The notes under the pieces were generated by a model. That model was not told the origin of the DNA. It searched no databases and saw only the letters and a list, made by a program, of their open reading frames with translations. A DNA stretch of 64,000 nt from a virus: positions 1 through 64,000 of the IMG/VR virus record IMGVR_UViG_3300032164_000003; one strand, written 5' to 3'. A program made the translations under genes and the position numbers. How positions within the stretch are numbered: position 1 is the first letter of the stretch; each line of letters opens with the position of its first letter. This document shows positions 984 to 34,123 of this stretch, in pieces.

Positions 984-2123
984 TTATTCCACTGCCTTGA
1001 AGTTATAGACCGGCTTCATTATGAAATCGATAGTCACGCTCTCACCAATGGCGTCAATGATCTTCTGCTTGTCTTTGTACGCCATCGGGGACTCATCTAG
1101 CGTGTCTTTGCTGACACAGGACGACCACACACCAACCATCTCTTTTTGGAACTCGTCTAGCTGCAATTCCCGCTTCGCACGACTTCTGGAATAGATTCTC
1201 CCAGCACCATGGGGAGCAGACATATTCCATTTTGCACTACCCTTGCCGGTTCCTATAATAGTCCCGTCACGCATGTTCAAAGGAATTATTACCCTTTCTC
1301 CTTCATGTGCTGAAATGGCACCCTTGCGGAGAATGTTGTCGGAGAAGTTTATGTAGTTGTGAACTGATTTCACACTTTCCAATTTGGAATATTCTTGTTT
1401 GAAAAACTCCTCAATGATTTGTTTGACCATGAAGTATCTATTCATCAGTGCATATCTTTGTGCTACCTTCATGTCAGTCAAGTATTCTTTGCCACCCTTG
1501 TCTATAGGCAAGAATTCAAGATCTTTATATGCGGCCCCTATAAACATTTCTCGCATAAGTTCTTTGGCGCGCTTCTGATGATATCCAGCTATGTCCAACC
1601 CAAATTTGCGACTTCCAGAATGGACGAGCAACCAAATGTTACCAGTTGCATCCTTGTCCAATTCTATAAAATGGTTTCCACCGCCCAATGTACCTATGGA
1701 CTTTAATGCTCTGGTACTATCAGAACCTATGTTGCAACAAATGTCAACGATCATTGCTGGTAATTCTTCGAGCAGATTAGTATCTATTTGTTGTTTATCA
1801 CTTCGTACGTGAAAACCGCTCGGAATGTTTTCGCGGATGAAGCCATCCAACTTCGCAAAGTCTACTTCTATTTGTCCAAGGTTGAACGCCTCAATTCCGC
1901 AGCCGATGTCAACACCTACTAAATTGGCGATTACATAATTATTCATCTTAGCTGTGTAGCCGATAACCGCCCCGGCTCCAGCATGGCAATCTGGCATGAT
2001 TGCGATGTATGTATTTCCAAATGCTGGATGATTCAGGAAACTGTAGATTTGAGCTACAGTTGTTTCGTCGATATCGTCAATCATGACATTAGCAGAATTA
2101 TATTTTCCTGTGTACGTTAACAT
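984..2123 (-). CDS. rtcB: RtcB family RNA ligase (tRNA repair)
   Basis: Motifs MPDCHAG, VGVDIGCG, GTLGGGNHFIE, HSGSR, HNYI, RKGA, SAPHGAGR, DESPMAYK. Confidence 0.95.
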   Translation of the reverse strand: MLTYTGKYNSANVMIDDIDETTVAQIYSFLNHPAFGNTYIAIMPDCHAGAGAVIGYTAKMNNYVIANLVGVDIGCGIEAFNLGQIEVDFAKLDGFIRENIPSGFHVRSDKQQIDTNLLEELPAMIVDICCNIGSDSTRALKSIGTLGGGNHFIELDKDATGNIWLLVHSGSRKFGLDIAGYHQKRAKELMREMFIGAAYKDLEFLPIDKGGKEYLTDMKVAQRYALMNRYFMVKQIIEEFFKQEYSKLESVKSVHNYINFSDNILRKGAISAHEGERVIIPLNMRDGTIIGTGKGSAKWNMSAPHGAGRIYSRSRAKRELQLDEFQKEMVGVWSSCVSKDTLDESPMAYKDKQKIIDAIGESVTIDFIMKPVYNFKAVE

Positions 2124-2286: not shown

Positions 2287-2314
2287 ATTATACATACGAT
2301 GGAGAGTTTGTAAA
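2287..2314 (-). promoter_or_regulatory. sigma70-type promoter TTTACA-N16-TATAAT driving the small ORF, rtcB and downstream tRNAs
   Basis: Minus strand CTTTACAAACTCTCCATCGTATGTATAAT. Confidence 0.65.
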
Positions 2315-2583: not shown

Positions 2584-4155
2584 TTACAACTCGATCTCGT
2601 CCACGATCCCGACAAGCTGCTCGGAATCCAGATCATTGGTGGCGAACCGGTTGATTACGTCGAACACCTGATCGCTCCATCCACCAACGTTCAGCACGTC
2701 CTTGCGGTGCTTCGGTGCCTGTGTGTCCTTGCCAGCTTGAATGTCAATCAGCACCATCTTGGCGTTCTTGTTGCGCGACTTCAGCTGCTCCCACTCATGC
2801 ATCAATGGTGTGCAGCCCCGGCTCAAATAGTAAGAGCCTGCCCAGGACTCGTTGTCGCTAACAATGATGATTAGGTCTACCTCGGCGCGCTCACGGTTGA
2901 GTAGTCGCAATGGCGCAGAGCACTCCGTAGATCCACCGCCGATGCTTCCAAGCAGTGCCGCGTTGGTCATGATGCTGTCACGCGGATTGACCCGTACGTT
3001 GACCACATTTCCCTCGAACGGGATCACTCGCGACATTGGGTTCTTGCGCAAGTACACTGCGCTTACCAAGGCTGCCACGTCGATGCAGTTTACCTTGGTG
3101 GTTGCCGTGCCCCGGTCACCCGTGATCGGGCTGGACATAGATCCGGAAACATCTGGACAGATTACGACGTTTCCGTCAAACACGTCCACGTTCTCACAGG
3201 CAATTTCCATAGCCTCTTGCAGCGCATCCGAAATCTCAGCCGGCGCATCCTCGATGTTCTTGTACGCTGCTAGCAATTGGTACGGGAACGCACGTGCGCG
3301 CTGGATCTGATCACGATCCTGCAAGCGTTCCGCCACCAGCTTGACCATCTTCTTTCCGTCCCTGCCGTCGAACACACCATGCCGCTTGAACGTGTTGATG
3401 TTCATGCGGGTCATCATCCACTTTGCGTTCTTGGCAATCTCCTTCCAAGCTGCAGTATCCAATTCCAGCGAGGTTAGGTACTGGAAGGAAACATCCGGGA
3501 CTTCCTCTGCCTTGCCTGCCTTGAACAACTCGTACTCCTTGACGATCTTCGGCAGGTAGCGCTTGTTGTACTCCTTGCCCAGGATGTACGCGTAGAAGGC
3601 ATTGCGGGTCTTATCCTTCGGCTTCGGGTGAACCATCTTCACCAGATCGGCCAAAGATACACCAGCGCCTACGGCATCGCGGAATAGCTGCTCGTCAGTG
3701 CGACCGTCAAGCCAGCCACGGATGATGTTACGAGGAGCCGTACCGAAGCTCTTACGCCCGGTTACACCGCTGCGGATGATCTGAGCAAACTTGCGCAGCT
3801 GTGTGCCGTTGTCGATGGTCTTGGGAAAGATCGCCCTTACTAGATCGATCTCACCACGACCAACTAGGTGCGCCGTCAAGAAGGCCGGCATGTCCTTCAT
3901 ATAGCCCTTGTCACGGCTATACACTGCCACCTTGGCGATGAACTCTGGATCGACCTTGGTGCATAGATCTTGGGTATCGTTCATTAGTTCATCTGCGTGT
4001 GCATAGAAGATGTCATTGAAACAGTTGGTGACGGCATACTGAATGAGCGCATGCTTATCACTCATCTTGTATGCCAACCCACCCGCGCGGTTGCGAGTGT
4101 CCGACTTCGGGGCCATCTTACCACGGGTTGTTGAGAATAGACGACGGTTTACCAT
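2584..4155 (-). CDS. rsr: Ro60/Rsr-like TROVE domain RNA-binding protein with C-terminal vWA domain
   Basis: N-terminal NRAGGLAY, DPEFIAKVAVYSR..GYMKDMPA, GRKSFG, MVHPKP, ARAFPYQLLAAY; vWA MIDAS DVSGSM, SDNESW, GGWSDQVF. Probable start M7 (4155) after a GGAGG SD. Confidence 0.93.
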   Translation of the reverse strand: MVNRRLFSTTRGKMAPKSDTRNRAGGLAYKMSDKHALIQYAVTNCFNDIFYAHADELMNDTQDLCTKVDPEFIAKVAVYSRDKGYMKDMPAFLTAHLVGRGEIDLVRAIFPKTIDNGTQLRKFAQIIRSGVTGRKSFGTAPRNIIRGWLDGRTDEQLFRDAVGAGVSLADLVKMVHPKPKDKTRNAFYAYILGKEYNKRYLPKIVKEYELFKAGKAEEVPDVSFQYLTSLELDTAAWKEIAKNAKWMMTRMNINTFKRHGVFDGRDGKKMVKLVAERLQDRDQIQRARAFPYQLLAAYKNIEDAPAEISDALQEAMEIACENVDVFDGNVVICPDVSGSMSSPITGDRGTATTKVNCIDVAALVSAVYLRKNPMSRVIPFEGNVVNVRVNPRDSIMTNAALLGSIGGGSTECSAPLRLLNRERAEVDLIIIVSDNESWAGSYYLSRGCTPLMHEWEQLKSRNKNAKMVLIDIQAGKDTQAPKHRKDVLNVGGWSDQVFDVINRFATNDLDSEQLVGIVDEIEL

Positions 4156-4236
4156 AACTTCCCTCCGATGCATTTCCCTTTCGGGAACGATTATGCCGAG
4201 AGTACAACGAAAGTTTGAACGCTCTCAGCGATAAAA
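4156..4236 (-). promoter_or_regulatory. structured 5' leader of rsr with a circularly permuted Ro-site-like hairpin next to the SD
   Basis: GCTGAGAG/CTCTCGGC hairpin, then TCG-TTCCC-GAAA-GGGAA-ATGC, then GGAGG SD and ATG. Confidence 0.45.
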
Positions 4237-4244
4237 CTATAAAA

Positions 4245-4310
4245 TGGGGTGACAAGGTTTTGTAGAGATTTAGTCGGTTAATGATGTAATCCCTACAAGC
4301 ATTCACCCCA
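4245..4310 (-). ncRNA. Y-RNA-like unit 7 (minimal, scaffold only)
   Basis: GGGGTGA-ATGC-TTGTAGGGATTACAT...AATCTCTACAA-AACCTTG-TCACCCC. Confidence 0.7.
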
Positions 4311-4314
4311 ATAC

Positions 4315-4446
4315 TTTTGGGCAACGAAATTTGGAAAGACTTTTTACCGGAGTCCTGGCGTTAGACGACAGCCCGATGGTCGGGCTGGCAGGAGTTAAAC
4401 CTACGTTACCGGTCCTGTATGTAGTCCTTCCGGCATTTGCCCAAAA
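4315..4446 (-). ncRNA. Y-RNA-like unit 6 (YrlA-type, permuted tRNA domain)
   Basis: GGGCAA-ATGC-CGGAAGGACTACAT scaffold; ACCGG/CCGGT stem, T-arm GTAGG-TTTAACT-CCTGC, closed acceptor CAGCCCGA-CCA-TCGGGCTG, D-arm GTC..GAC. Confidence 0.8.
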
Positions 4447-4457
4447 CTGAAAATAAA

Positions 4458-4593
4458 TTGGCCAACGAGTATTGGAAAGATTTTTGTCTGCCGCTCTACC
4501 TACTGAGCTATACTACCATACAAAGTATGGCAGCAGCAGGACTCGAACCTGCGACCAACAGTTTATAATGTAATCCTTCCTGCATTTGGCCAA
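4458..4593 (-). ncRNA. Y-RNA-like unit 5 (YrlA-type, permuted tRNA domain)
   Basis: GGCCAA-ATGC-AGGAAGGATTACAT scaffold; T-arm GCAGG-TTCGAGT-CCTGC, closed acceptor TGCTGCCATAC-TTT-GTATGGTAGTA, D-arm GCTC-AGTAGGTA-GAGC. Confidence 0.85.
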
Positions 4594-4610
4594 AGCGAAA
4601 ACTTAGAAAA

Positions 4611-4766
4611 TTTGGACAACGAGAGTTGCGAGACGGTCAACCCGGGTATGACGTCCGGGCGCTCTACCTTAGAGCATCTCGCCCAATCAGAGATGGAATC
4701 CCGGTTGTGGGCGAGATAGGAATCGAACCTATTATGATGATGTAGTCCCGCTGGCATTTGTCCAAA
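4611..4766 (-). ncRNA. Y-RNA-like unit 4 (permuted tRNA retaining an anticodon-like arm)
   Basis: GGACAA-ATGC-CAGCGGGACTACAT scaffold; T-arm ATAGG-TTCGATT-CCTAT, acceptor CTCGCCCA/TGGGCGAG, D-arm GCTC-TAAGGTA-GAGC, arm CCCGG-ACGTCATAC-CCGGG. Confidence 0.8.
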
Positions 4767-4776
4767 ACTAAACTAC

Positions 4777-4894
4777 TTTACCCGACGAAAGGTGGAGAGA
4801 CTATTTTAAGCGTGCTACCGTTACACTAATTATACGGAGTTGAACCGTTCCTCCTCTTTATTAGAGATGTAATCCCTCTGGGCATTCGGGTAAA
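4777..4894 (-). ncRNA. Y-RNA-like unit 3 (T-arm + D-arm only)
   Basis: ACCCGA-ATGC-CCAGAGGGATTACAT scaffold; ACGG-TTCAACT-CCGT and GTG-TAACGGTAG-CAC with almost no acceptor stem. Confidence 0.75.
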
Positions 4895-4906
4895 ACGAAA
4901 ATTAGA

Positions 4907-4995
4907 TTGCCCAACGAAATTTGTCGAGACGTTGGACCACCCCCCGAGGGTGGTCATCTTTATCAGAGATGTAATCCCGACTGGCATTTGGGCAA
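4907..4995 (-). ncRNA. Y-RNA-like unit 2 (single GC-rich hairpin insert)
   Basis: GCCCAA-ATGC-CAGTCGGGATTACAT...GACCACCC/GGGTGGTC...GTCTCGAC-AAATTTCG-TTGGGC. Confidence 0.72.
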
Positions 4996-4999
4996 ATAG

Positions 5000-5063
5000 T
5001 TACCCGACAAGAGTAGAAGAGACATTTATCACATAAGATGTAGTCTCTTCAGCATTCGGGTAA
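5000..5063 (-). ncRNA. Y-RNA-like unit 1 (minimal, scaffold only)
   Basis: ACCCGA-ATGC-TGAAGAGACTACAT...GTCTCTTC-TACTCTTG-TCGGGT. Confidence 0.7.
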
Positions 5064-5074
5064 TCTTTAGTTCC

Positions 5075-5524: not shown

Positions 5525-5593
5525 TAGCGGGGGTCGGATTCGAACCGACCGCCCGAGGCGTATGAGGCCCCAGTCTGCCCGAGCAGCCCCGCA
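5525..5593 (-). tRNA. tRNA-Met(CAT), initiator-like with reduced D-arm
   Basis: 1:72 mismatch (T/T) above GCGGGG/CCCCGC, A73, GGGGC-CTCATAC-GCCTC, T-arm GTCGG-TTCGAAT-CCGAC; D region only CTGC-TCGG-GCAG. Confidence 0.75.
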
Positions 5594-6174: not shown

Positions 6175-6202
6175 ATTATACTTCTGAAACATGCGTTGTC
6201 AA
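6175..6202 (-). promoter_or_regulatory. consensus sigma70 promoter TTGACA-N16-TATAAT
   Basis: Minus strand CCTTGACAACGCATGTTTCAGAAGTATAAT, with a T-tract upstream. Confidence 0.8.
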
Positions 6203-28033: not shown

Positions 28034-28319
28034 CTAGCACCTTCTCTGCATCTCGCTCATTTTGCTGGCTTTGTACGGCATGTTTTATTCCTAAAAGTAT
28101 TTCCTTAATAACCGCATCAAGTTTTATTGCCCGTCGAATGTCTGTTTGCGTGGCAAGATACGCAGCCTTCGCTAAATTCTTATCGATCAGATCTGCATCC
28201 TCTTTCTTTATAGCGCCGTCTGTATCTTCTGCATATTGTGTTCCGAAACTTACCGAGGCTATATCACCGTTTGGAAACTTATGAGAAAAGGTTGCATCGA
28301 AATGTTTCTCAATCTTCAC
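28026..28319 (-). CDS. hypothetical protein
   Basis: 97-aa ORF coupled to both neighbours. Confidence 0.6.
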   Translation of the reverse strand: MKIEKHFDATFSHKFPNGDIASVSFGTQYAEDTDGAIKKEDADLIDKNLAKAAYLATQTDIRRAIKLDAVIKEILLGIKHAVQSQQNERDAEKVLDE

Positions 28320-30375
28320 TGGTTGCCCTTTCTATCTTTATATCGGCAATGATAGACTCGTAGGTGTCTCGGTTTTCTTTCAGCACTGTTATAGCCCCAA
28401 CCTTGCCCTTACCTAGCAAGTCACCCTTGTAATAATACTTCGTTCCTCGGAGTTCTACGATATCTTTTTCTTCGGCCATAGCAAGTAGTTCTGCTTCTTT
28501 ACTAAAGCCGCTGCCAAATATAAGGTCTGTTTGGATCACCTTGAATGGGGGAGCAAGTTTATTCTTTACGATCTTTACCTGAACGCGGTTTCCCACAATC
28601 TTTTCCTTTAGTTTCAGGCTTCCTATACGCCGAATGTCCACGCGAACACTGGCGTAGAACTTTAGCGCGTTGCCGCCGGATGTCGTTTCTGGATTGCCAA
28701 ACATTACTCCAATTTTGTGCCGTACTTGATTAATAAAGATGGCCAGCGTCCCAGTCCGCGCGACAGGTGTACTTATTTTACGCATGCCTTGGCCCATCAA
28801 CCTGGCCTGTGCGCCCATCTGGGCATCACCCATGTTTCCGTCAATCTCAGACTGTGGAGTGAGCGCGGACACAGAGTCAATGACCGCGACGTCGAACTTA
28901 CCAGAAGAAACAGCCATCTCAAAGATTTCTAGGGCCTGTTCCCCAGAGTCCGGCTGACTGATAACAAGCTTTGCCGGGTCTACCCCAATCTTCATGGCAA
29001 GATTCATATCTAATGCATGTTCTGCATCGATAAAGATAGCTTGTCCACCTGCTCTCTGCGCCTCCGCGATGCAATGGAGAGCTAGCGTAGTATTATGTGT
29101 GACTATAAAATCGTCTGTAATGTAAAGGTGGTCAGGATCGTCTATTAATATGCAGCTGGCTTCTTTTTTTCCAACTGGAATTATGTCTGTTATCCACCTA
29201 TTTAAGTAGTCACACTTTGCAGTACTTCTGTTATTAAGAAGTACATTTTTCTTCCTGGACAAGCGGAAGGGCATTAGATTATGGGGAAGCATGATTATAA
29301 TACGATACGCTCGCTTACCCGAAACACACGCCCCGGCTTTTATGTAATGTGTTTTCTTTGTGGCTACATTTACTTTACCGCCTAAACTGCGTACGATATG
29401 TGTTACACCATCTTTTAACCATGGGCTGGTAGTAATGTACTCTAGCGATTGATGCGCCTTGCAAATGTGCCCATCAGTGTCAAGGAGCCCCTGTAATACT
29501 GCAAGGCGATCTTCTACTGAGGAGTACAAATAACAATCTGGTATAAACTTAACTGGGGATGTATGATTGTGTAAGTTTAATTCCTCTAGTATATTTCTTA
29601 GTGGTGCCTTTTCGTGCGATCTTGTTTTTTTTGATATACTGTAATCATACTTAGACACCTGGGTTACTTTTTGATTAGTGCTCATTGCATAATCTACTAT
29701 GGCGTCCACAATTTCTGCATCTGTGGTGCTCATTCTGATTGTAGCATTTCTAAAACAACCATCACCAAGTAGCAAGCCAAGTATATATGGATCTAATGGC
29801 AACTCCTTTTTCGGAAAATTTATAGGTGACACCATTGGAATATAGTATTTAAATCTGTCGGTTAACTTAAAATCGATCATTAGTTCGGTAAGCGGTAGAA
29901 CGCGCCACAAATCATTTTCTTTATCATCCCAAGTTTGAACGGCCCACAGGTGATCTCTACAGCATTCTGTGCTGCTTCCATCAGAGAAAACAACTTTGAA
30001 AATTTCTTTTTCTCCCTGCGGAAATACACCAAGTACTACTGATGGCTTTCCGCTAGAAGAAAATACGATGCTTCCTGGAAACAGGTCCCTTATAGTTTTC
30101 CACCCACGCGGAGTTAGCACCTTGGAATCTAGCGGTTGCGCTTTTCCACCCCCCTCAGGTCCGTATATTTCTACGATCCTGCCTCGCGGGAACCCGCCGA
30201 TTCCTAGGGCCTCGTCAACCCAAAACGAACCGGTAGATATTACATCCACTCTCTCTGTGGACATATCATCCATTTTACGAACGCATGCTTTACCATGCTT
30301 CTTTTGAATCTCGTACAGGATTTCATCGATGGACTTATCTGTGAGATCTGCCTTTGGTACTCTCTTTTTTGCCAC
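28309..30375 (-). CDS. recA: RecA recombinase with intein in the P-loop
   Basis: GGFPRGRIVEIYGPEGGGK|TTLAL, FIDAEHALD, QPDSGEQ, IDSV, QARLMGQ, FINQ, ETTSGGNALKFYASVR; GTG start after AAGGAG. Confidence 0.95.
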   Translation of the reverse strand: MAKKRVPKADLTDKSIDEILYEIQKKHGKACVRKMDDMSTERVDVISTGSFWVDEALGIGGFPRGRIVEIYGPEGGGKAQPLDSKVLTPRGWKTIRDLFPGSIVFSSSGKPSVVLGVFPQGEKEIFKVVFSDGSSTECCRDHLWAVQTWDDKENDLWRVLPLTELMIDFKLTDRFKYYIPMVSPINFPKKELPLDPYILGLLLGDGCFRNATIRMSTTDAEIVDAIVDYAMSTNQKVTQVSKYDYSISKKTRSHEKAPLRNILEELNLHNHTSPVKFIPDCYLYSSVEDRLAVLQGLLDTDGHICKAHQSLEYITTSPWLKDGVTHIVRSLGGKVNVATKKTHYIKAGACVSGKRAYRIIIMLPHNLMPFRLSRKKNVLLNNRSTAKCDYLNRWITDIIPVGKKEASCILIDDPDHLYITDDFIVTHNTTLALHCIAEAQRAGGQAIFIDAEHALDMNLAMKIGVDPAKLVISQPDSGEQALEIFEMAVSSGKFDVAVIDSVSALTPQSEIDGNMGDAQMGAQARLMGQGMRKISTPVARTGTLAIFINQVRHKIGVMFGNPETTSGGNALKFYASVRVDIRRIGSLKLKEKIVGNRVQVKIVKNKLAPPFKVIQTDLIFGSGFSKEAELLAMAEEKDIVELRGTKYYYKGDLLGKGKVGAITVLKENRDTYESIIADIKIERATSED
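29092..30141 (-). mobile_element. class-3-type intein (350 aa; Ala1, W-C-T triad) with LAGLIDADG endonuclease
   Basis: Starts AQPLDS; DHLW (block B Trp); ASCILID (block F Cys); IVTHN (block G Thr) followed by T; LGLLLGDG and LQGLLDTDG. Confidence 0.88.
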
Positions 30376-30388
30376 GGTGCGCTCCTTT

Positions 30389-33300
30389 TTATAATTCAAC
30401 GACTTCCAAAGTTCCCAGTGTGGTTCCAATCTCGAAGTCCAGTTTCATCTTGCACAAAAACCCAGGAAAAGCAGTCGCGACAACTTTATTCATAACATTG
30501 ATCAAAGATTCTTCCTGTCCCTTTTTTACTTGAATCACATTAGCGTCGTGAATGGTTGTCATAGGATAACAAGTTATACCTTCTTTCTTTGCTAACCGAA
30601 GGGTCATTACCATGTAGTGATTATTCATATCAGAGGCGAGCCCTTGGATTGGACTATTCCGAGCTTGGCGCTCTGCTTCTGCCTGCACCATCTTGTCATA
30701 ACTGTCGATCTCTGGTAGCCTTCTAATACGACCCATCCATGTTTTAACTGTCTTGTATTCATGCGCCTGCTGCACTTGCTTATCCAACCAAATTGAGGCG
30801 TCAGGATACTTTTGGAAGAATAGATCGCGCACTGCTTCTGCCTCGTCCTCAGTTATCCCGTATTGTTTAGCAATGGCCTTTACACCACGCCCATACATTA
30901 ATCCAAACACGCAATCGAGTGTATAAAAACCATTGGCTACCATAACCTTATCACCTGTTGTAACAAAGTCGTACACAGGCAATTTACCAATATGTTTTAT
31001 CGCAGTTATTTTAACAGAATAAATATTATTTTTTACCAATGTGTCTATTGTACTGTTAATCCCAAAACAATACTTCCTTAGAAAAGAATGTGTTAATTTC
31101 TTTCTGATTTTAATTCCATACCGTACATCACAATTAGTATGGTGTGTCCGATAAAATTGGTTAACATTATGCAAAAACTTCCTTCCACGATTCTGTCTAG
31201 GGTATGCCCATCCTTTTGGTACATGCACACCAACCGTGTCCACCAACAGTGCCAATTCGTCAGTATTGGTGATTTGTATATTGTAAAATACGCGTCCATG
31301 GTTTGGGTGTTCAATAGCTATTTTGGGATATATGCCAAACCCACGTAACAATAAACACAGGGCGTCACATGTGTCTCGGCAAACAGTTCCAGCGCATGCC
31401 CTGTCCCATTTAAACGTGCCGTCCCCCAAAAAGTATCCTTGTAAAAAGGCTTTTTGAACATCCGTTGGAGACATAATAATCTTGTCTGGAAATGTTTTAA
31501 ATCCTTTCTTATTTCCTGGAGTCATTCCAAGGTACTTCAAAAATTCAACAAACTCTAAGGAGGTTACAGCCCAAGTAACAAGGCCATTACGTTTGTCAAT
31601 ATATCGCTTAACTCTGGCACCAAATATTTTTTTGCTCAAAACATCAATCATGTTCACAAATTTGCCCTTTTGACACCACCGTACATAAACATGTCTAGTC
31701 CTGGTATTTATAGAGCCCTCTGCCAAAATAAAACCCAACAGGTACCCTAATTCCGGAGTTAGTACCCAGCGCCTAAAGATAGGCTTGAAAGATGTTCTTC
31801 TGTCGCCTACAAAACTCCAAGTAATGTACTTCTTTTGTTTGTTCCGTGGTGTGCAAGATAATATGTAGTCCCCATTGGATAGTTCAGATAATTTCTTAGT
31901 GATCACATTACCATGTACATCGATTACATAAAATGGGTGATTGGCTGTACATTTTATGCTGCCACATTCAGTGTCCACCAAATAAACATTGTCTAGTTTA
32001 GTAACTGTTTTCAGAACAGTTTGGCGACGATTAAGATGATCTAAAACAATATCGCCCTTGTTAATACTGTTTATCTGTCTTAGACCGACACTTGTAGGTA
32101 TCCAGGTATCCCCCGAAACACAATTTTTCGCGGCGGTGCGTTGTTCCTTTGTGACAGCATCCTCCGTTGTGCCAAATATCTCTGCAGCAATCTTGCGATG
32201 GATGTCCAAGCCTGCTTCAATATCTGCGATCATCTGTGCATCTTCAGAATAGTGCGCCCAGCACCGGAACTCTGCTTGGGCAAGGTCTGACTTTACTATG
32301 GTCATCCCCGGATCTGCCAAGAAGCATTCTTTCAAATCAGCTGCGTTTCTAGGGATGTTTTGGAAGTTGGGGTTTTGACTAGCGATACGACCAGTTACAG
32401 TGCGGTGCTGCATATACCCGGGGTGCACGCGTCCATCAAACTTTGACTTACTGTAAATAGACTTAATGTAAGTTGAAAGGAACTTGGTCAATTGCCGGTA
32501 TTCTATAATCTGCTTTGCCAGATTTACATTATCTTCGCTAGCAAGGAGCTTTAATGTTTCTTCGTTAGTGCTATAGTCCCCTTTTCCAGTTTTATTTTCT
32601 GTTTCAAGCCCCATCATGTCAAAGAATATCTCTCGTAATTGCTTAGTAGACCCCGGGTTGAAGACCCAGTCATCTTCTTTTATTCTAATCTTAGTGTAAT
32701 CTGAAGCACAGGGAAAGCGCCCGCGCAATGTTTTAGATTGTTCCCACTTCGCCTCTAACATCTTGGAGGCGCGCATGTAGCGGATCTTCTGGTATTTACC
32801 TACTTCTTTATTCTCCATTATCGCAGCTAGGGCATTCCGAACCTTTGCAGTATATTTTTTACCAAGCTTCTTTAGCTTTTTGCGATCAACGAGTATGCCG
32901 TGATACTCCATCTTTAGCAGAACCCATAATGTAGGGATCGTGTATGTGTTATAGAAATCTAGAAGGTTTTGCCGGAGCAATTCTTTTCTGAATTTTATAA
33001 ACAAGCGGAACGTTGCGTCTCCGTCGCACTGGGCGTACGAGGAAAGTATAGAATAAGGAATGCGACTATATGTATAGTCATCCTTATTTATTTTATTCTT
33101 CTTCATGTCCTCTTTTTTGAAGTCTTCTAAATCTACCCAATACTCTCCCATGTCTAGATAGCGTAGAGTTAGCGTATCCAGTGACTTGTCTCGAAGATTT
33201 TCATTGAGTAAAGCAATCGCAGGTAGACAGTCAAAGATCGGATTCTTTACTCTTATCCCATTCGCGAGCAAAACCTGTATATCAAACTTAAGGTTATGTC

Positions 33301-34123
33301 CTACCTTGAGCTTCCCTTTAGCAGCAAGTATTCTTTGCAAACGATCCAGTTGTTGTGGTGTAAGTCTGTCCCAGCGGATAGTTACACCGAGCCCAATCGT
33401 CCAAGAAAATGATATAAGTAGTATTTTTGCGTCGTGTGGATTTAGTGATGTTGTCTCTAAGTCGAAAGCGAATTCATCGGCTCGTTCTAGAGCACGCAAT
33501 ACCGCATTTATTTGCTCCGGTGTCTTTGCATCGATATGTCTTGTCTGTACCTTGTCTTTCGCTCCCTTAACTTCCCCGTGCGCAGTCGATTCTCTCTTTA
33601 TTATTTCCAGACCCTTTTTAAGATCTGCCTCGGCAGAAGGATTTCTTAGAACATACGCAGGATGTACAACTGGCACTACCTTGACGTTGAATTCCTTACT
33701 GAATAGAACATTGTTCTGTATCTTAGTTATTCCTGTGCGTTTAAGGACTGCGTCAAGAGCTATATTCCCAATAACTCCAATTACATTTGGTTTGATCTTA
33801 TTTATTTCAGCTATCAGATATTCTCGGCAAAGTGCTATTTCTAGCTTTGCTGGTTTCTGATTTTCATCCGGAGTCGCACACTTTATGGCGTTAGTTATAT
33901 AAACTTGATCGCGATCTATGCCGACCTCTGCGAATAAGTCGGTAAGAACCTCACCGGACGCCCCAATGAATGGGATTCCTTTCCGATCTTCTTCCTGCCC
34001 CGGCGCTTCTCCTATAAACATTATCTTAGCGTCGGTCGGCCCAACACCGCGCAGTTTAGGAGAACAAATGTCAGCTGATTTGCGGGTGCACTTCTCAGAA
34101 CAACCATGACGTGGATCTGCCAT
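30389..34123 (-). CDS. polA: family A DNA polymerase with N-terminal family-4 uracil-DNA glycosylase-like domain (SPO1-type), 3'-5' exonuclease and intein
   Basis: GEAPGQEED..PFIGASG and HPAYVLR; DLETT, HNLKFD, YAQCD; TVTGR..NPNFQNIP, DLAQAEFR, R..AKN|CVFGLMYG, NSPIQG, IHDA. Confidence 0.93.
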   Translation of the reverse strand: MADPRHGCSEKCTRKSADICSPKLRGVGPTDAKIMFIGEAPGQEEDRKGIPFIGASGEVLTDLFAEVGIDRDQVYITNAIKCATPDENQKPAKLEIALCREYLIAEINKIKPNVIGVIGNIALDAVLKRTGITKIQNNVLFSKEFNVKVVPVVHPAYVLRNPSAEADLKKGLEIIKRESTAHGEVKGAKDKVQTRHIDAKTPEQINAVLRALERADEFAFDLETTSLNPHDAKILLISFSWTIGLGVTIRWDRLTPQQLDRLQRILAAKGKLKVGHNLKFDIQVLLANGIRVKNPIFDCLPAIALLNENLRDKSLDTLTLRYLDMGEYWVDLEDFKKEDMKKNKINKDDYTYSRIPYSILSSYAQCDGDATFRLFIKFRKELLRQNLLDFYNTYTIPTLWVLLKMEYHGILVDRKKLKKLGKKYTAKVRNALAAIMENKEVGKYQKIRYMRASKMLEAKWEQSKTLRGRFPCASDYTKIRIKEDDWVFNPGSTKQLREIFFDMMGLETENKTGKGDYSTNEETLKLLASEDNVNLAKQIIEYRQLTKFLSTYIKSIYSKSKFDGRVHPGYMQHRTVTGRIASQNPNFQNIPRNAADLKECFLADPGMTIVKSDLAQAEFRCWAHYSEDAQMIADIEAGLDIHRKIAAEIFGTTEDAVTKEQRTAAKNCVSGDTWIPTSVGLRQINSINKGDIVLDHLNRRQTVLKTVTKLDNVYLVDTECGSIKCTANHPFYVIDVHGNVITKKLSELSNGDYILSCTPRNKQKKYITWSFVGDRRTSFKPIFRRWVLTPELGYLLGFILAEGSINTRTRHVYVRWCQKGKFVNMIDVLSKKIFGARVKRYIDKRNGLVTWAVTSLEFVEFLKYLGMTPGNKKGFKTFPDKIIMSPTDVQKAFLQGYFLGDGTFKWDRACAGTVCRDTCDALCLLLRGFGIYPKIAIEHPNHGRVFYNIQITNTDELALLVDTVGVHVPKGWAYPRQNRGRKFLHNVNQFYRTHHTNCDVRYGIKIRKKLTHSFLRKYCFGINSTIDTLVKNNIYSVKITAIKHIGKLPVYDFVTTGDKVMVANGFYTLDCVFGLMYGRGVKAIAKQYGITEDEAEAVRDLFFQKYPDASIWLDKQVQQAHEYKTVKTWMGRIRRLPEIDSYDKMVQAEAERQARNSPIQGLASDMNNHYMVMTLRLAKKEGITCYPMTTIHDANVIQVKKGQEESLINVMNKVVATAFPGFLCKMKLDFEIGTTLGTLEVVEL
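30914..32122 (-). mobile_element. intein (403 aa) with LAGLIDADG endonuclease and atypical C-terminal Leu-Asp
   Basis: Starts CVSGDT, CTANHPF, LGFILAEG, LQGYFLGDG, VYDF..., ends ANGFYTLD followed by C. Confidence 0.85.

What the first reader, a model, noticed from the sequence alone, without database searches (positions are those of the whole stretch)
4611..4766. A Y-RNA unit with a different permutation: scaffold attached at the variable loop and an anticodon-like arm retained
Seen: the order is scaffold, T-arm (ATAGG-TTCGATT-CCTAT), acceptor CTCGCCCA/TGGGCGAG closed by a ~20-nt insert, D-arm (GCTC-TAAGGTA-GAGC), a complete arm CCCGG-ACGTCATAC-CCGGG, then scaffold. The 9-nt loop contains TCATA, like a Met anticodon loop. 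Inference: unlike YrlA, this RNA displays an anticodon-like loop on a Ro-bound particle. It could act as bait or a repairable substrate for tRNA-Met-specific nucleases (VapC-type), paired with the neighbouring RtcB.
Basis: partly seen in the sequence, partly recalled or inferred. Interest (0 to 1): 0.72.

Follow-up and report, generated by a model that had tools for sequence, protein, structure and literature searches.

The report
Phage Y RNA with anticodon-position arm
Next to a phage's Ro60 gene lies a tRNA look-alike "Y RNA" that carries one extra hairpin where a tRNA's anticodon arm would sit. The hairpin recurs in four other phage-like sequences, but its anticodon-like loop does not, so a role as bait for a methionine-tRNA nuclease remains unproven.

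Summary
On the minus strand, 4766..4611 is one of seven tandem Y-RNA units lying upstream of a phage Ro60 gene and RtcB. It matches Rfam YrlA at 40.7 bits (E 2.4e-7), below the curated cut-off of 69.

An arm at this position is rare but recurrent. I found it in five of about 190 permuted tRNA-like cores beside phage or metagenome Ro60 genes, and in none of 80 bacterial Ro60 loci. The five helices all differ in sequence, and all form with pair probability of about 1.

The loop is not conserved. The other four arms are capped by GCAA, UUCG, GAAA or a triloop. Only this unit has a large loop; its UCAUAC equals the 3' part of the phage's own tRNA-Met anticodon loop, but the loop has 9 nt rather than 7.

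So the topology claim is supported. The "Met bait paired with RtcB" function is not: RtcB lies near Ro60 in only 17 of 167 loci.

This is a new variant of YrlA-type Y RNAs. Earlier notes of this scan record similar anticodon-arm-bearing mimics on other DNA; I found none in print.

The parts
4611..4766 (-). Whole Y-RNA unit 'B' (156 nt), fourth of seven tandem units
   Evidence: Rfam YrlA 40.7 bits, E 2.4e-7. MFE fold z = -4.1.
4758..4766 (-). Outer scaffold stem, 5' strand; pairs with 4611-4619
   Evidence: The same two-helix scaffold occurs in all seven units.
4745..4757 (-). Conserved AUGC internal loop plus the inner scaffold stem 5' strand (4745-4751); putative Ro60-binding region
   Evidence: Aligned to YrlA model positions 1-23. 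A shared motif, ATG[CT]..GA[CT]TACA, occurs in 242 distinct units.
4733..4744 (-). 5' linker (variable-loop equivalent). Its last base is U, which could pair with A15 of the D loop as a Levitt-type pair.
   Evidence: Sequence. The pairing is inferred by analogy with Chen 2014.
4716..4732 (-). T arm: 5 bp, loop UUCGAUU
4678..4715 (-). Sealed acceptor-like stem (8 bp: 4708-4715 with 4678-4685) closed by a 22-nt insert containing a small hairpin
4661..4675 (-). D arm (4-bp stem, loop with GG), preceded by the linker AU (4676-4677)
4641..4659 (-). Extra arm at the anticodon position: CCCGG, a 9-nt loop (4646-4654) and CCGGG, one base (G4660) after the D stem
   Evidence: Pair probabilities about 1.0. 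The stem plus G26 is identical to the D/anticodon junction of real phage tRNAs in the sample. Arms at the same position occur in L004, L124, L293 and L302.
4628..4640 (-). 3' linker (4635-4640) and inner scaffold stem 3' strand (4628-4634)
4611..4627 (-). 3' internal loop (..CUCG) and outer scaffold stem 3' strand
2584..4173 (-). Ro60/Rsr gene (529 aa), the presumed protein partner, 438 nt downstream of unit B
   Evidence: Pfam vWA_Ro60 3.7e-19 and TROVE 7.2e-10
4241..5067 (-). The seven-unit Y-RNA array that contains unit B
   Evidence: Rfam YrlA/YrlB matches and folds
6175..6202 (-). Consensus sigma-70-type promoter (12 of 12) upstream of the tRNA, Y-RNA and Ro60 run; co-transcription is inferred
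984..2123 (-). RtcB RNA ligase gene, same strand, downstream of Ro60
   Evidence: Pfam RtcB 3.4e-66

Best explanation
Unit B is a genuine partner RNA (Y RNA) of the phage's Ro60 protein. It belongs to the YrlA class but has a five-helix junction instead of four.

The two-helix scaffold with the conserved AUGC / UCG internal loop docks on Ro60. The T and D arms form a tRNA-like elbow, and the acceptor is sealed, so the RNA cannot be charged. The extra helix follows the D stem after one base, so it can stack under the D stem as an anticodon stem does. The scaffold then leaves the body where a class II tRNA has its long variable arm. The RNA therefore presents a nearly complete tRNA silhouette on Ro60.

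Its likely job is that proposed for YrlA in general: to tether Ro60 to a tRNA-recognising protein, or to compete with tRNA for one. Here the partner would be one that also reads the anticodon limb. What selection keeps is the helix. In this unit the loop looks like the decayed, two-base-expanded loop of a tRNA-Met-type anticodon arm.

Shown: the fold, the topology, the recurrence, and the linkage to Ro60. Inferred: Ro60 binding, coaxial stacking, and the partner protein.
For: - Rfam YrlA matches the whole unit (E 2.4e-7). It lies 438 nt upstream of Ro60 on the same strand, inside an array of seven scaffold-sharing units.
- The MFE fold and the ensemble give all five helices.
- An arm 0-2 nt after the D stem recurs in four other units beside Ro60 genes: L004:1392-1559, L124:2065-2242, L293:1174-1315 and L302:5514-5659. 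All five helix sequences differ, and all form with probability about 1. L293 also keeps a 4-bp closing stem, making a clean five-way junction.
- The stretch 'D stem 3' strand, G, CCCGG ... CCGGG' is identical to the same stretch in real phage tRNA-His and tRNA-Asn genes in the sample.
- When the unit is put back into tRNA order, ARAGORN calls it a tRNA.
- Canonical YrlA units sit beside the five-arm unit in the window, L124, L293 and L302. This points to a separate role rather than a replacement.
- Thermus phage phiLo Ro60 was shown to bind phage Y-like RNAs and host PNPase (PMC12135203).
- Hughes 2020 proposed the YrlA tRNA-like domain as a competitive inhibitor of an anticodon nuclease.
Against: - No transcript, binding or structure data exist for this RNA.
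- The score is below Rfam's curated cut-off (40.7 against 69 bits).
- The closest available Ro60 relative (L094, 71% identity) has a Y array but no B-like unit, so the unit is not conserved even at that distance.
- The linker between acceptor and D arm is AU, not the UA conserved in YrlA.
- Sequence cannot decide which helix stacks on the D stem.
- The five examples may be independent inventions with different roles.
Confidence: 0.7

Rival explanations
1. The extra arm displays a tRNA-Met-like anticodon loop on the Ro60 particle. It serves as bait or a repairable substrate for a tRNA-Met-specific anticodon nuclease (VapC type), and the neighbouring RtcB reseals the cut.
For: - The loop's 3' six bases, UCAUAC, equal positions 33-38 of the phage's only tRNA-Met. 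By my arithmetic the chance of such a 6-mer match to any of the nine phage tRNA loops is roughly 0.02.
- Two other phage Y scaffolds carry 5-bp hairpins with UUCAUA(C) loops. L058:961-1033 is called tRNA-Met(CAU) by ARAGORN; the other is in L049.
- RtcB is 460 nt downstream of Ro60 here.
- A decoy idea has been voiced for YrlA (Hughes 2020).
Against: - The loop has 9 nt, with two extra bases on its 5' side. Read symmetrically, its centre is UCA rather than CAU (ARAGORN).
- The four units with the same topology have GCAA, UUCG, GAAA or AUA caps.
- TCATAC is not enriched in Y modules: 3 seen, 3.9 expected.
- With the loop masked, the arm shows no Met preference.
- RtcB lies within the flanks of only 17 of 167 Ro60 loci, and of only one other five-arm locus.
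- Salmonella YrlA was not cut by the SOS anticodon nuclease.
Confidence: 0.1
2. The extra hairpin is a structural or docking add-on unrelated to anticodon mimicry. It could be a stable capped helix that braces the junction or contacts Ro60 or a tetraloop receptor. In this phage it merely happens to have an enlarged loop.
For: - Four of the five arms end in classic stable caps: two GNRA, one UUCG and one triloop.
- Other Y units (L117, L040, and a second hairpin in L124) carry small GNRA- or GAA-capped hairpins outside the tRNA-like junction.
Against: - In all five units the arm starts 0-2 nt after the D stem, the spacing of a tRNA anticodon stem.
- In the window its stem is letter-for-letter a real tRNA anticodon stem.
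- Both facts fit tRNA mimicry or tRNA descent better than a free-standing brace.
Confidence: 0.15
3. Unit B is a precursor of a working tRNA, either permuted or split. Cuts in the acceptor insert and CCA addition would open the acceptor, leaving a two-piece tRNA held together by the scaffold.
For: - Permuted pre-tRNAs with a sealed acceptor exist in algae (cited in Wang 2018).
- M. smegmatis YrlA is cut by RNase P RNA in vitro (Chen 2014).
- The re-ordered sequence passes ARAGORN.
Against: - The anticodon loop has 9 nt and lacks the usual U33 and purine-37 frame in the symmetric register.
- No CCA follows the acceptor 3' strand.
- The Ro scaffold is fully conserved.
- Units with the same topology have tetraloops that cannot decode.
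Confidence: 0.03

Closest known systems
YrlA (Y RNA-like A; Rfam RF02553; Chen et al. 2014, PMC4201824; structure in Wang et al. 2018, doi 10.1101/312249)
   Same: It is encoded beside Ro60 on the same strand. It has the same Ro-binding two-helix scaffold, the same permuted order of T arm, loop-closed acceptor and D arm, and the same T- and D-loop signatures.
   Different: Canonical YrlA has a four-way junction, its scaffold continues the anticodon stem, and it 'lacks the anticodon loop'. Here a fifth helix with a loop follows the D arm, and the scaffold leaves from the variable-region side. The Rfam score is below the family cut-off.
Deinococcus radiodurans Yrn1 (Chen et al. 2014)
   Same: A Ro60-bound Y RNA that was modelled with a potential 'anticodon arm' (5-bp stem, 6-nt loop).
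   Different: Yrn1 has another permutation: there the hairpin between the T and D elements takes the anticodon place. It has no full D arm and no acceptor-like stem.
Class II tRNAs (Leu, Ser, Sec) with a long variable arm
   Same: A five-helix junction in the cyclic order acceptor, D, anticodon, variable, T. In unit B the Ro scaffold takes the place of the variable arm. It also has an 8-bp acceptor and a UCA-centred loop, which gives a weak tRNA-Sec resemblance (Rfam 21.6 bits, E 0.17; ARAGORN labels the re-ordered unit 'SeC').
   Different: The acceptor is sealed and the ends lie in the 'variable arm'. The loop has 9 nt, and it is not a decoding RNA. The Sec resemblance is below any threshold.
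Circularly permuted tRNA genes of Cyanidioschyzon merolae and the 'dimeric tRNA' origin model for YrlA (Sim and Wolin 2018, as cited in Wang 2018)
   Same: The 3' half comes before the 5' half, and a spacer closes the acceptor. Unit B reads as T arm plus acceptor 3' strand, then spacer, then acceptor 5' strand plus D arm plus anticodon arm. That is what a junction of two tandem tRNAs would give.
   Different: There is no evidence of processing to a tRNA. The ends are held in a Ro60-binding scaffold.
Thermus phage phiLo Yrl1/Yrl2 with phage Ro60 (PMC12135203)
   Same: Phage-encoded Y-like RNAs upstream of a phage Ro60 gene. Binding to Ro60 and to host PNPase was shown experimentally.
   Different: Those RNAs were described as stem-bulge-stem Y RNAs. 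The terms 'tRNA-like' and 'anticodon' do not occur in that paper's text.

Membership tests
YrlA (RF02553) | Encoded within about 4 kb of a Ro60/TROVE gene on the same strand | tested here: met
   Unit at 4766-4611 (-), Ro60 at 4173-2584 (-)
YrlA (RF02553) | 5'/3' ends form the Ro-binding helix with the conserved internal-loop motif | tested here: met
   Model positions 1-23 and 88-114 aligned with high posterior probability. The scaffold is shared by all seven units.
YrlA (RF02553) | Permuted tRNA-like module: T arm, loop-closed acceptor stem, D arm | tested here: met
YrlA (RF02553) | Score at or above Rfam's gathering cut-off (69 bits) | tested here: not met
   40.7 bits. The other five-arm units score 32.3 bits (L004) or are not found at E <= 0.01 (L124, L293, L302).
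YrlA (RF02553) | No anticodon stem-loop; the scaffold continues the anticodon stem (four-way junction) | tested here: not met
   A fifth helix with a 9-nt loop follows the D arm
YrlA (RF02553) | Bound by Ro60/Rsr in vivo | not testable with these tools
   Needs co-immunoprecipitation or a gel-shift assay
tRNA (RF00005) | Cloverleaf in normal order with an open acceptor end | tested here: not met
   No ARAGORN or Rfam tRNA call in the native order. The best sub-threshold tRNA match is 18.9 bits, E 0.58. Only the re-ordered sequence is called a tRNA.
tRNA (RF00005) | 7-nt anticodon loop with U33 and purine 37 | tested here: not met
   The loop has 9 nt. A 7-nt reading needs an A-C closing pair and gives G33 and U37.

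The most novel reading that the evidence does not exclude
Phage Ro60 arrays are display racks that present tRNA parts on one constant handle. The parts range from elbow-only pieces to whole mimics with anticodon arms, repeatedly of the CAU (Met) type. They would capture, blunt or sense host nucleases that cut tRNA anticodon loops. Unit B would be a bait that is cut in its loop while held on Ro60 and then resealed by the phage RtcB.
Probability: 0.1. Interest if true: 0.85.

Novelty: new variant of a known kind. Interest (0 to 1): 0.5.

Why it matters
[quoted passage not shown] Published work expects them to read the tRNA elbow.

A recurrent phage variant that adds a helix at the anticodon position, next to ordinary YrlA copies in the same array, suggests that some partners also read the anticodon limb. 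It gives a natural pair of RNAs, with and without the arm, for pull-downs.

The unit also has the layout expected at the junction of two tandem tRNA genes. That bears on the published idea that Y RNAs arose from dimeric tRNA transcripts.

Rfam's model largely misses these variants, so phage Y RNAs are probably under-annotated.

Tried and rejected
- **blastn against cultured phages.** Searching the array found nothing. The nearest cultured Ro60 is Myxococcus phage Mx1 at 43% identity, and its 8.6-kb Ro60 locus has no scaffold motif.
- **Pattern for the D arm, CCGG arm and scaffold in IMG/VR.** It returned only the window, L004, ordinary tRNAs and coding matches.
- **First hairpin census.** A regex error in the T loop caused it to miss the window itself. 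I corrected it.
- **Spurious 'arm after D' hits.** Many were tandem tRNA genes, or canonical YrlA in which the A-rich linker pairs with the inner scaffold strand. I rejected these after folding.
- **Covariation counts.** The MAFFT alignment of the five cores (A2) is out of register in the D loop, so I did not run covariation counts or build a covariance model. The evidence is the five helices listed one by one.
- **tRNA-Sec reading.** It rests on a sub-threshold Rfam match (21.6 bits against a cut-off of 47) and on an A-C pair, so I did not adopt it.
- **Recent capture of a tRNA gene.** Rejected: the best local alignment to 483 phage tRNAs scores 34 of a possible 70.
The closer Ro60 relatives P0002 and P0004-P0011 (59-71% identity) could not be fetched, so conservation of the loop among near relatives is untested.
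- **Papers not held.** Two reviews (PMC10870794, PMC6047535) were unavailable.

Full report
**What is there.** The window is part of a 91-kb uncultured virus record estimated at about 50% complete. It carries a phage replication and packaging set: DNA polymerase, DnaB-like helicase, ribonucleotide reductase, SbcC-like nuclease and terminase.

Everything around the finding is on the minus strand. A 12-of-12 sigma-70-type promoter lies at 6202-6175. It is followed by tRNA-Met, Ile, Pro and Pro (5593-5120). Then comes a run of seven small structured units at 5067-4241, and then a 529-aa Ro60 protein at 4173-2584 with TROVE and vWA_Ro60 domains. After that come tRNA-Ala, RtcB (2123-984) and more tRNAs.

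At its curated thresholds Rfam reports only tRNAs. At permissive thresholds it matches the Y-RNA family YrlA three times: 4456-4592 at 64.2 bits, 4315-4443 at 45.7 bits, and 4610-4764 at 40.7 bits (E 2.4e-7). It also matches YrlB weakly twice. The finding is the third YrlA match.

- Outer stem 4766-4758 / 4619-4611 and inner stem 4751-4745 / 4634-4628.
- T arm 4732-4716.
- An 8-bp acceptor-like stem sealed by a 22-nt insert, 4715-4678.
- D arm 4675-4661, then one G.
- A hairpin at 4659-4641: CCCGG, a 9-nt loop, CCGGG.

The minimum-free-energy fold returns all of these (-60.2 kcal/mol, z = -4.1, none of 200 shuffles as stable). The pairs of the extra arm have ensemble probabilities of 0.87-1.0. 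The Rfam alignment accommodates the D arm and extra arm only as a 34-nt insertion, which explains the low score.

**Is the extra arm more than a quirk of one sequence?** I collected Ro60 loci from three sources.

- IMG/VR: plus loci from DNA-pattern scans.
- JGI metagenomes.
- Bacterial genomes.

A scaffold motif with closure of both helices gave 242 distinct Y units in 97 phage or metagenome loci, in arrays of up to nine units. A separate search looked for the permuted core (T arm, closed acceptor, D arm) without reference to the scaffold. It gave 186 cores in 223 loci.

After folding the candidates and discarding tandem tRNAs and spurious pairings, a helix starting 0-2 nt after the D stem remained in five units:

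| Unit | Loop cap of the extra arm |
|---|---|
| Window unit B | 9-nt loop |
| L004:1392-1559 | GCAA |
| L124:2065-2242 | UUCG |
| L293:1174-1315 | AUA triloop |
| L302:5514-5659 | GAAA |

All five lie beside a Ro60 gene on the same strand. All five helices (5-7 bp) differ in sequence, and all form with probability near 1.

L293 also keeps a 4-bp closing stem, so it shows a plain five-way junction. L124 can form a 5-bp closing stem and the window unit a 3-bp one. None of the 115 cores in 80 bacterial Ro60 loci has a genuine arm there. The feature is therefore rare, recurrent and, in this sample, confined to phage-like DNA.

Rfam's model detects the window and L004 units only below threshold, and does not detect the L124, L293 and L302 units at E <= 0.01. 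It does find a canonical YrlA elsewhere in each of those arrays. The five-arm form therefore sits alongside the ordinary form rather than replacing it.

**Topology.** In published YrlA the arms run (V), T, acceptor, D, and the scaffold continues the anticodon stem. The crystal-structure paper states that YrlA lacks the anticodon loop.

Here the order is T, acceptor, D, extra arm. In the cyclic order of a tRNA (acceptor, D, anticodon, variable, T), the extra arm falls at the anticodon position and the scaffold at the variable-arm position, as in class II tRNAs. The linkers fit this reading:

- no base between the T arm and the acceptor;
- two bases between the acceptor and the D arm;
- one base between the D arm and the extra arm;
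- one base between the extra arm and the closing stem, where a closing stem exists.

In the window the stretch 'D-stem 3' strand, G, CCCGG ... CCGGG' is letter-for-letter what real phage tRNA-His and tRNA-Asn genes in my sample carry at the D/anticodon junction. When the unit is put back into tRNA order, ARAGORN calls it a tRNA. Which helix actually stacks on the D stem cannot be read from sequence.

**The loop.** This is the weak part of the finding. The loop has 9 nt.

- Read from its 3' side, UCAUAC is identical to positions 33-38 of the phage's only tRNA-Met. I estimate about a 0.02 chance of such a 6-mer match to any of the nine phage tRNA loops.
- Read symmetrically with an A-C closing pair, the centre is UCA. 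That is why ARAGORN labels the re-ordered unit 'SeC' and why Rfam's tRNA-Sec model gives a sub-threshold 21.6 bits.
- The four units with the same topology have stable tetraloop or triloop caps that cannot mimic an anticodon.
- TCATAC is not enriched among Y modules: 3 seen, 3.9 expected.
- With the loop masked, the arm has no isotype preference among 483 phage tRNAs.

There is some evidence on the other side. All three TCATAC occurrences lie in or at the 3' edge of the loops of 5-bp hairpins. One is a Y scaffold enclosing an un-permuted tRNA-Met-like body (L058:918-1072, which ARAGORN calls tRNA-Met CAU). Another is a hairpin directly after the scaffold in L049. Display of a Met-type loop on Ro60 partner RNAs is therefore not excluded, but it is not what defines the extra arm.

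**Function.** Nothing here tests function. Three published results bear on it.

- A phage Ro60 binds phage Y-like RNAs and host PNPase in vitro (PMC12135203).
- The structure paper expects the partners of YrlA to be tRNA-binding proteins that read the elbow.
- Hughes et al. found that Salmonella YrlA is not cut by the SOS-induced anticodon nuclease and suggested it may act as a competitive inhibitor.

My best reading is that unit B is a Ro60 partner RNA whose module mimics nearly the whole tRNA body, for a partner that also reads the anticodon limb.

The proposed coupling to RtcB gets no support from gene order. RtcB lies within the fetched flanks of 17 of 167 Ro60 loci, and of only one of the other four five-arm loci.

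**Evolution.** The unit reads as T arm plus acceptor 3' strand, then a spacer, then acceptor 5' strand plus D arm plus anticodon arm. That is what the junction of two tandem tRNA genes looks like, and it lies in a phage tRNA cluster. This fits the dimeric-tRNA origin model cited by Wang et al., with the second tRNA's anticodon arm still in place.

The unit is not a recent capture. Its best alignment to any sampled tRNA scores 34 of a possible 70. The closest available Ro60 relative (71% identity) has no equivalent unit.

**Novelty and limits.** I found no description of this arrangement in the searchable literature. Two reviews were not held.

Earlier notes of this scan report complete permuted tRNA mimics with anticodon arms on Ro60-partner 'handles' in other phages, one of them CAU-like. 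I did not check those. They are AI notes and count only as leads.

The five-unit comparison rests on thermodynamic folds and direct inspection, not on a covariation statistic, because the automatic alignment was out of register.

Noticed in passing
L058:918-1072 (+): A Y scaffold encloses a tRNA body in normal (un-permuted) order: a hairpin, a D arm, an anticodon arm with loop UUCAUAC, and a degenerate T arm. ARAGORN-1033 tRNA-Met(CAU). Two ordinary CAU tRNAs lie just upstream. The fold z-score is only -0.9.
   Followed up: partly
L049, minus strand, unit starting at offset 4646 of the reverse complement: This Y unit has as its first module element a 5-bp hairpin with loop UUCAUA (Met-like), followed by a T-like arm and a GUAA-capped hairpin. 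It has no D arm.
   Followed up: no
L117:1625.., L040:12565.., L124:2525.. and L124:2205-2216: Small GNRA- or GAA-capped hairpins sit between the closing stem of an otherwise canonical tRNA-like module and the scaffold's 3' strand. This is a second, different place where phage Y RNAs carry an added hairpin.
   Followed up: partly
window 4241-5067 (-); also L040 and L055: Seven Y units lie in tandem here. Arrays of up to nine scaffold-sharing units occur in other large phage contigs. The modules range from scaffold-only to full tRNA mimics.
   Followed up: partly
L094:425-712 (+): The closest Ro60 relative (71% identity) has a roughly 290-nt unit with the usual outer scaffold but a long insert that is not tRNA-like. 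A stretch at about 190-280 looks like the 3' half of a YrlA without its 5' half.
   Followed up: no
L381:2030-2122 (+), Pyrinomonadaceae chromosome, about 1 kb upstream of Ro60: A tRNA-like gene with an anticodon arm has a variable-arm hairpin whose loop contains GAUUAC, the motif next to the Ro-binding stem of Y RNAs. It may be the un-permuted counterpart of the window's topology, or a coincidence.
   Followed up: no
window 4676-4677 and 4671 (-): The acceptor-to-D linker reads AU instead of the conserved UA, and the first D-loop base is U instead of A. The usual U8:A14 contact would then be swapped to A8:U14, a possible compensatory change.
   Followed up: no
window 28309-30429 (-) and 30389-34123 (-): The UvsX/RecA-like protein (706 aa) and the DNA polymerase (1244 aa) each have an internal segment matching PHROG families annotated as endonuclease, terminase or helicase loader. 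This suggests inteins or homing-endonuclease inserts.
   Followed up: no
window 6175-6202 (-) and 2287-2314 (-): A perfect (12 of 12) and a near-perfect (11 of 12) sigma-70 consensus promoter lie upstream of the tRNA/Y-RNA/Ro60 run and of the RtcB run respectively.
   Followed up: no
window 5525-5593 (-): The phage's only tRNA-Met is short (69 nt), with a reduced D arm and C at position 38 of the anticodon loop.
   Followed up: no
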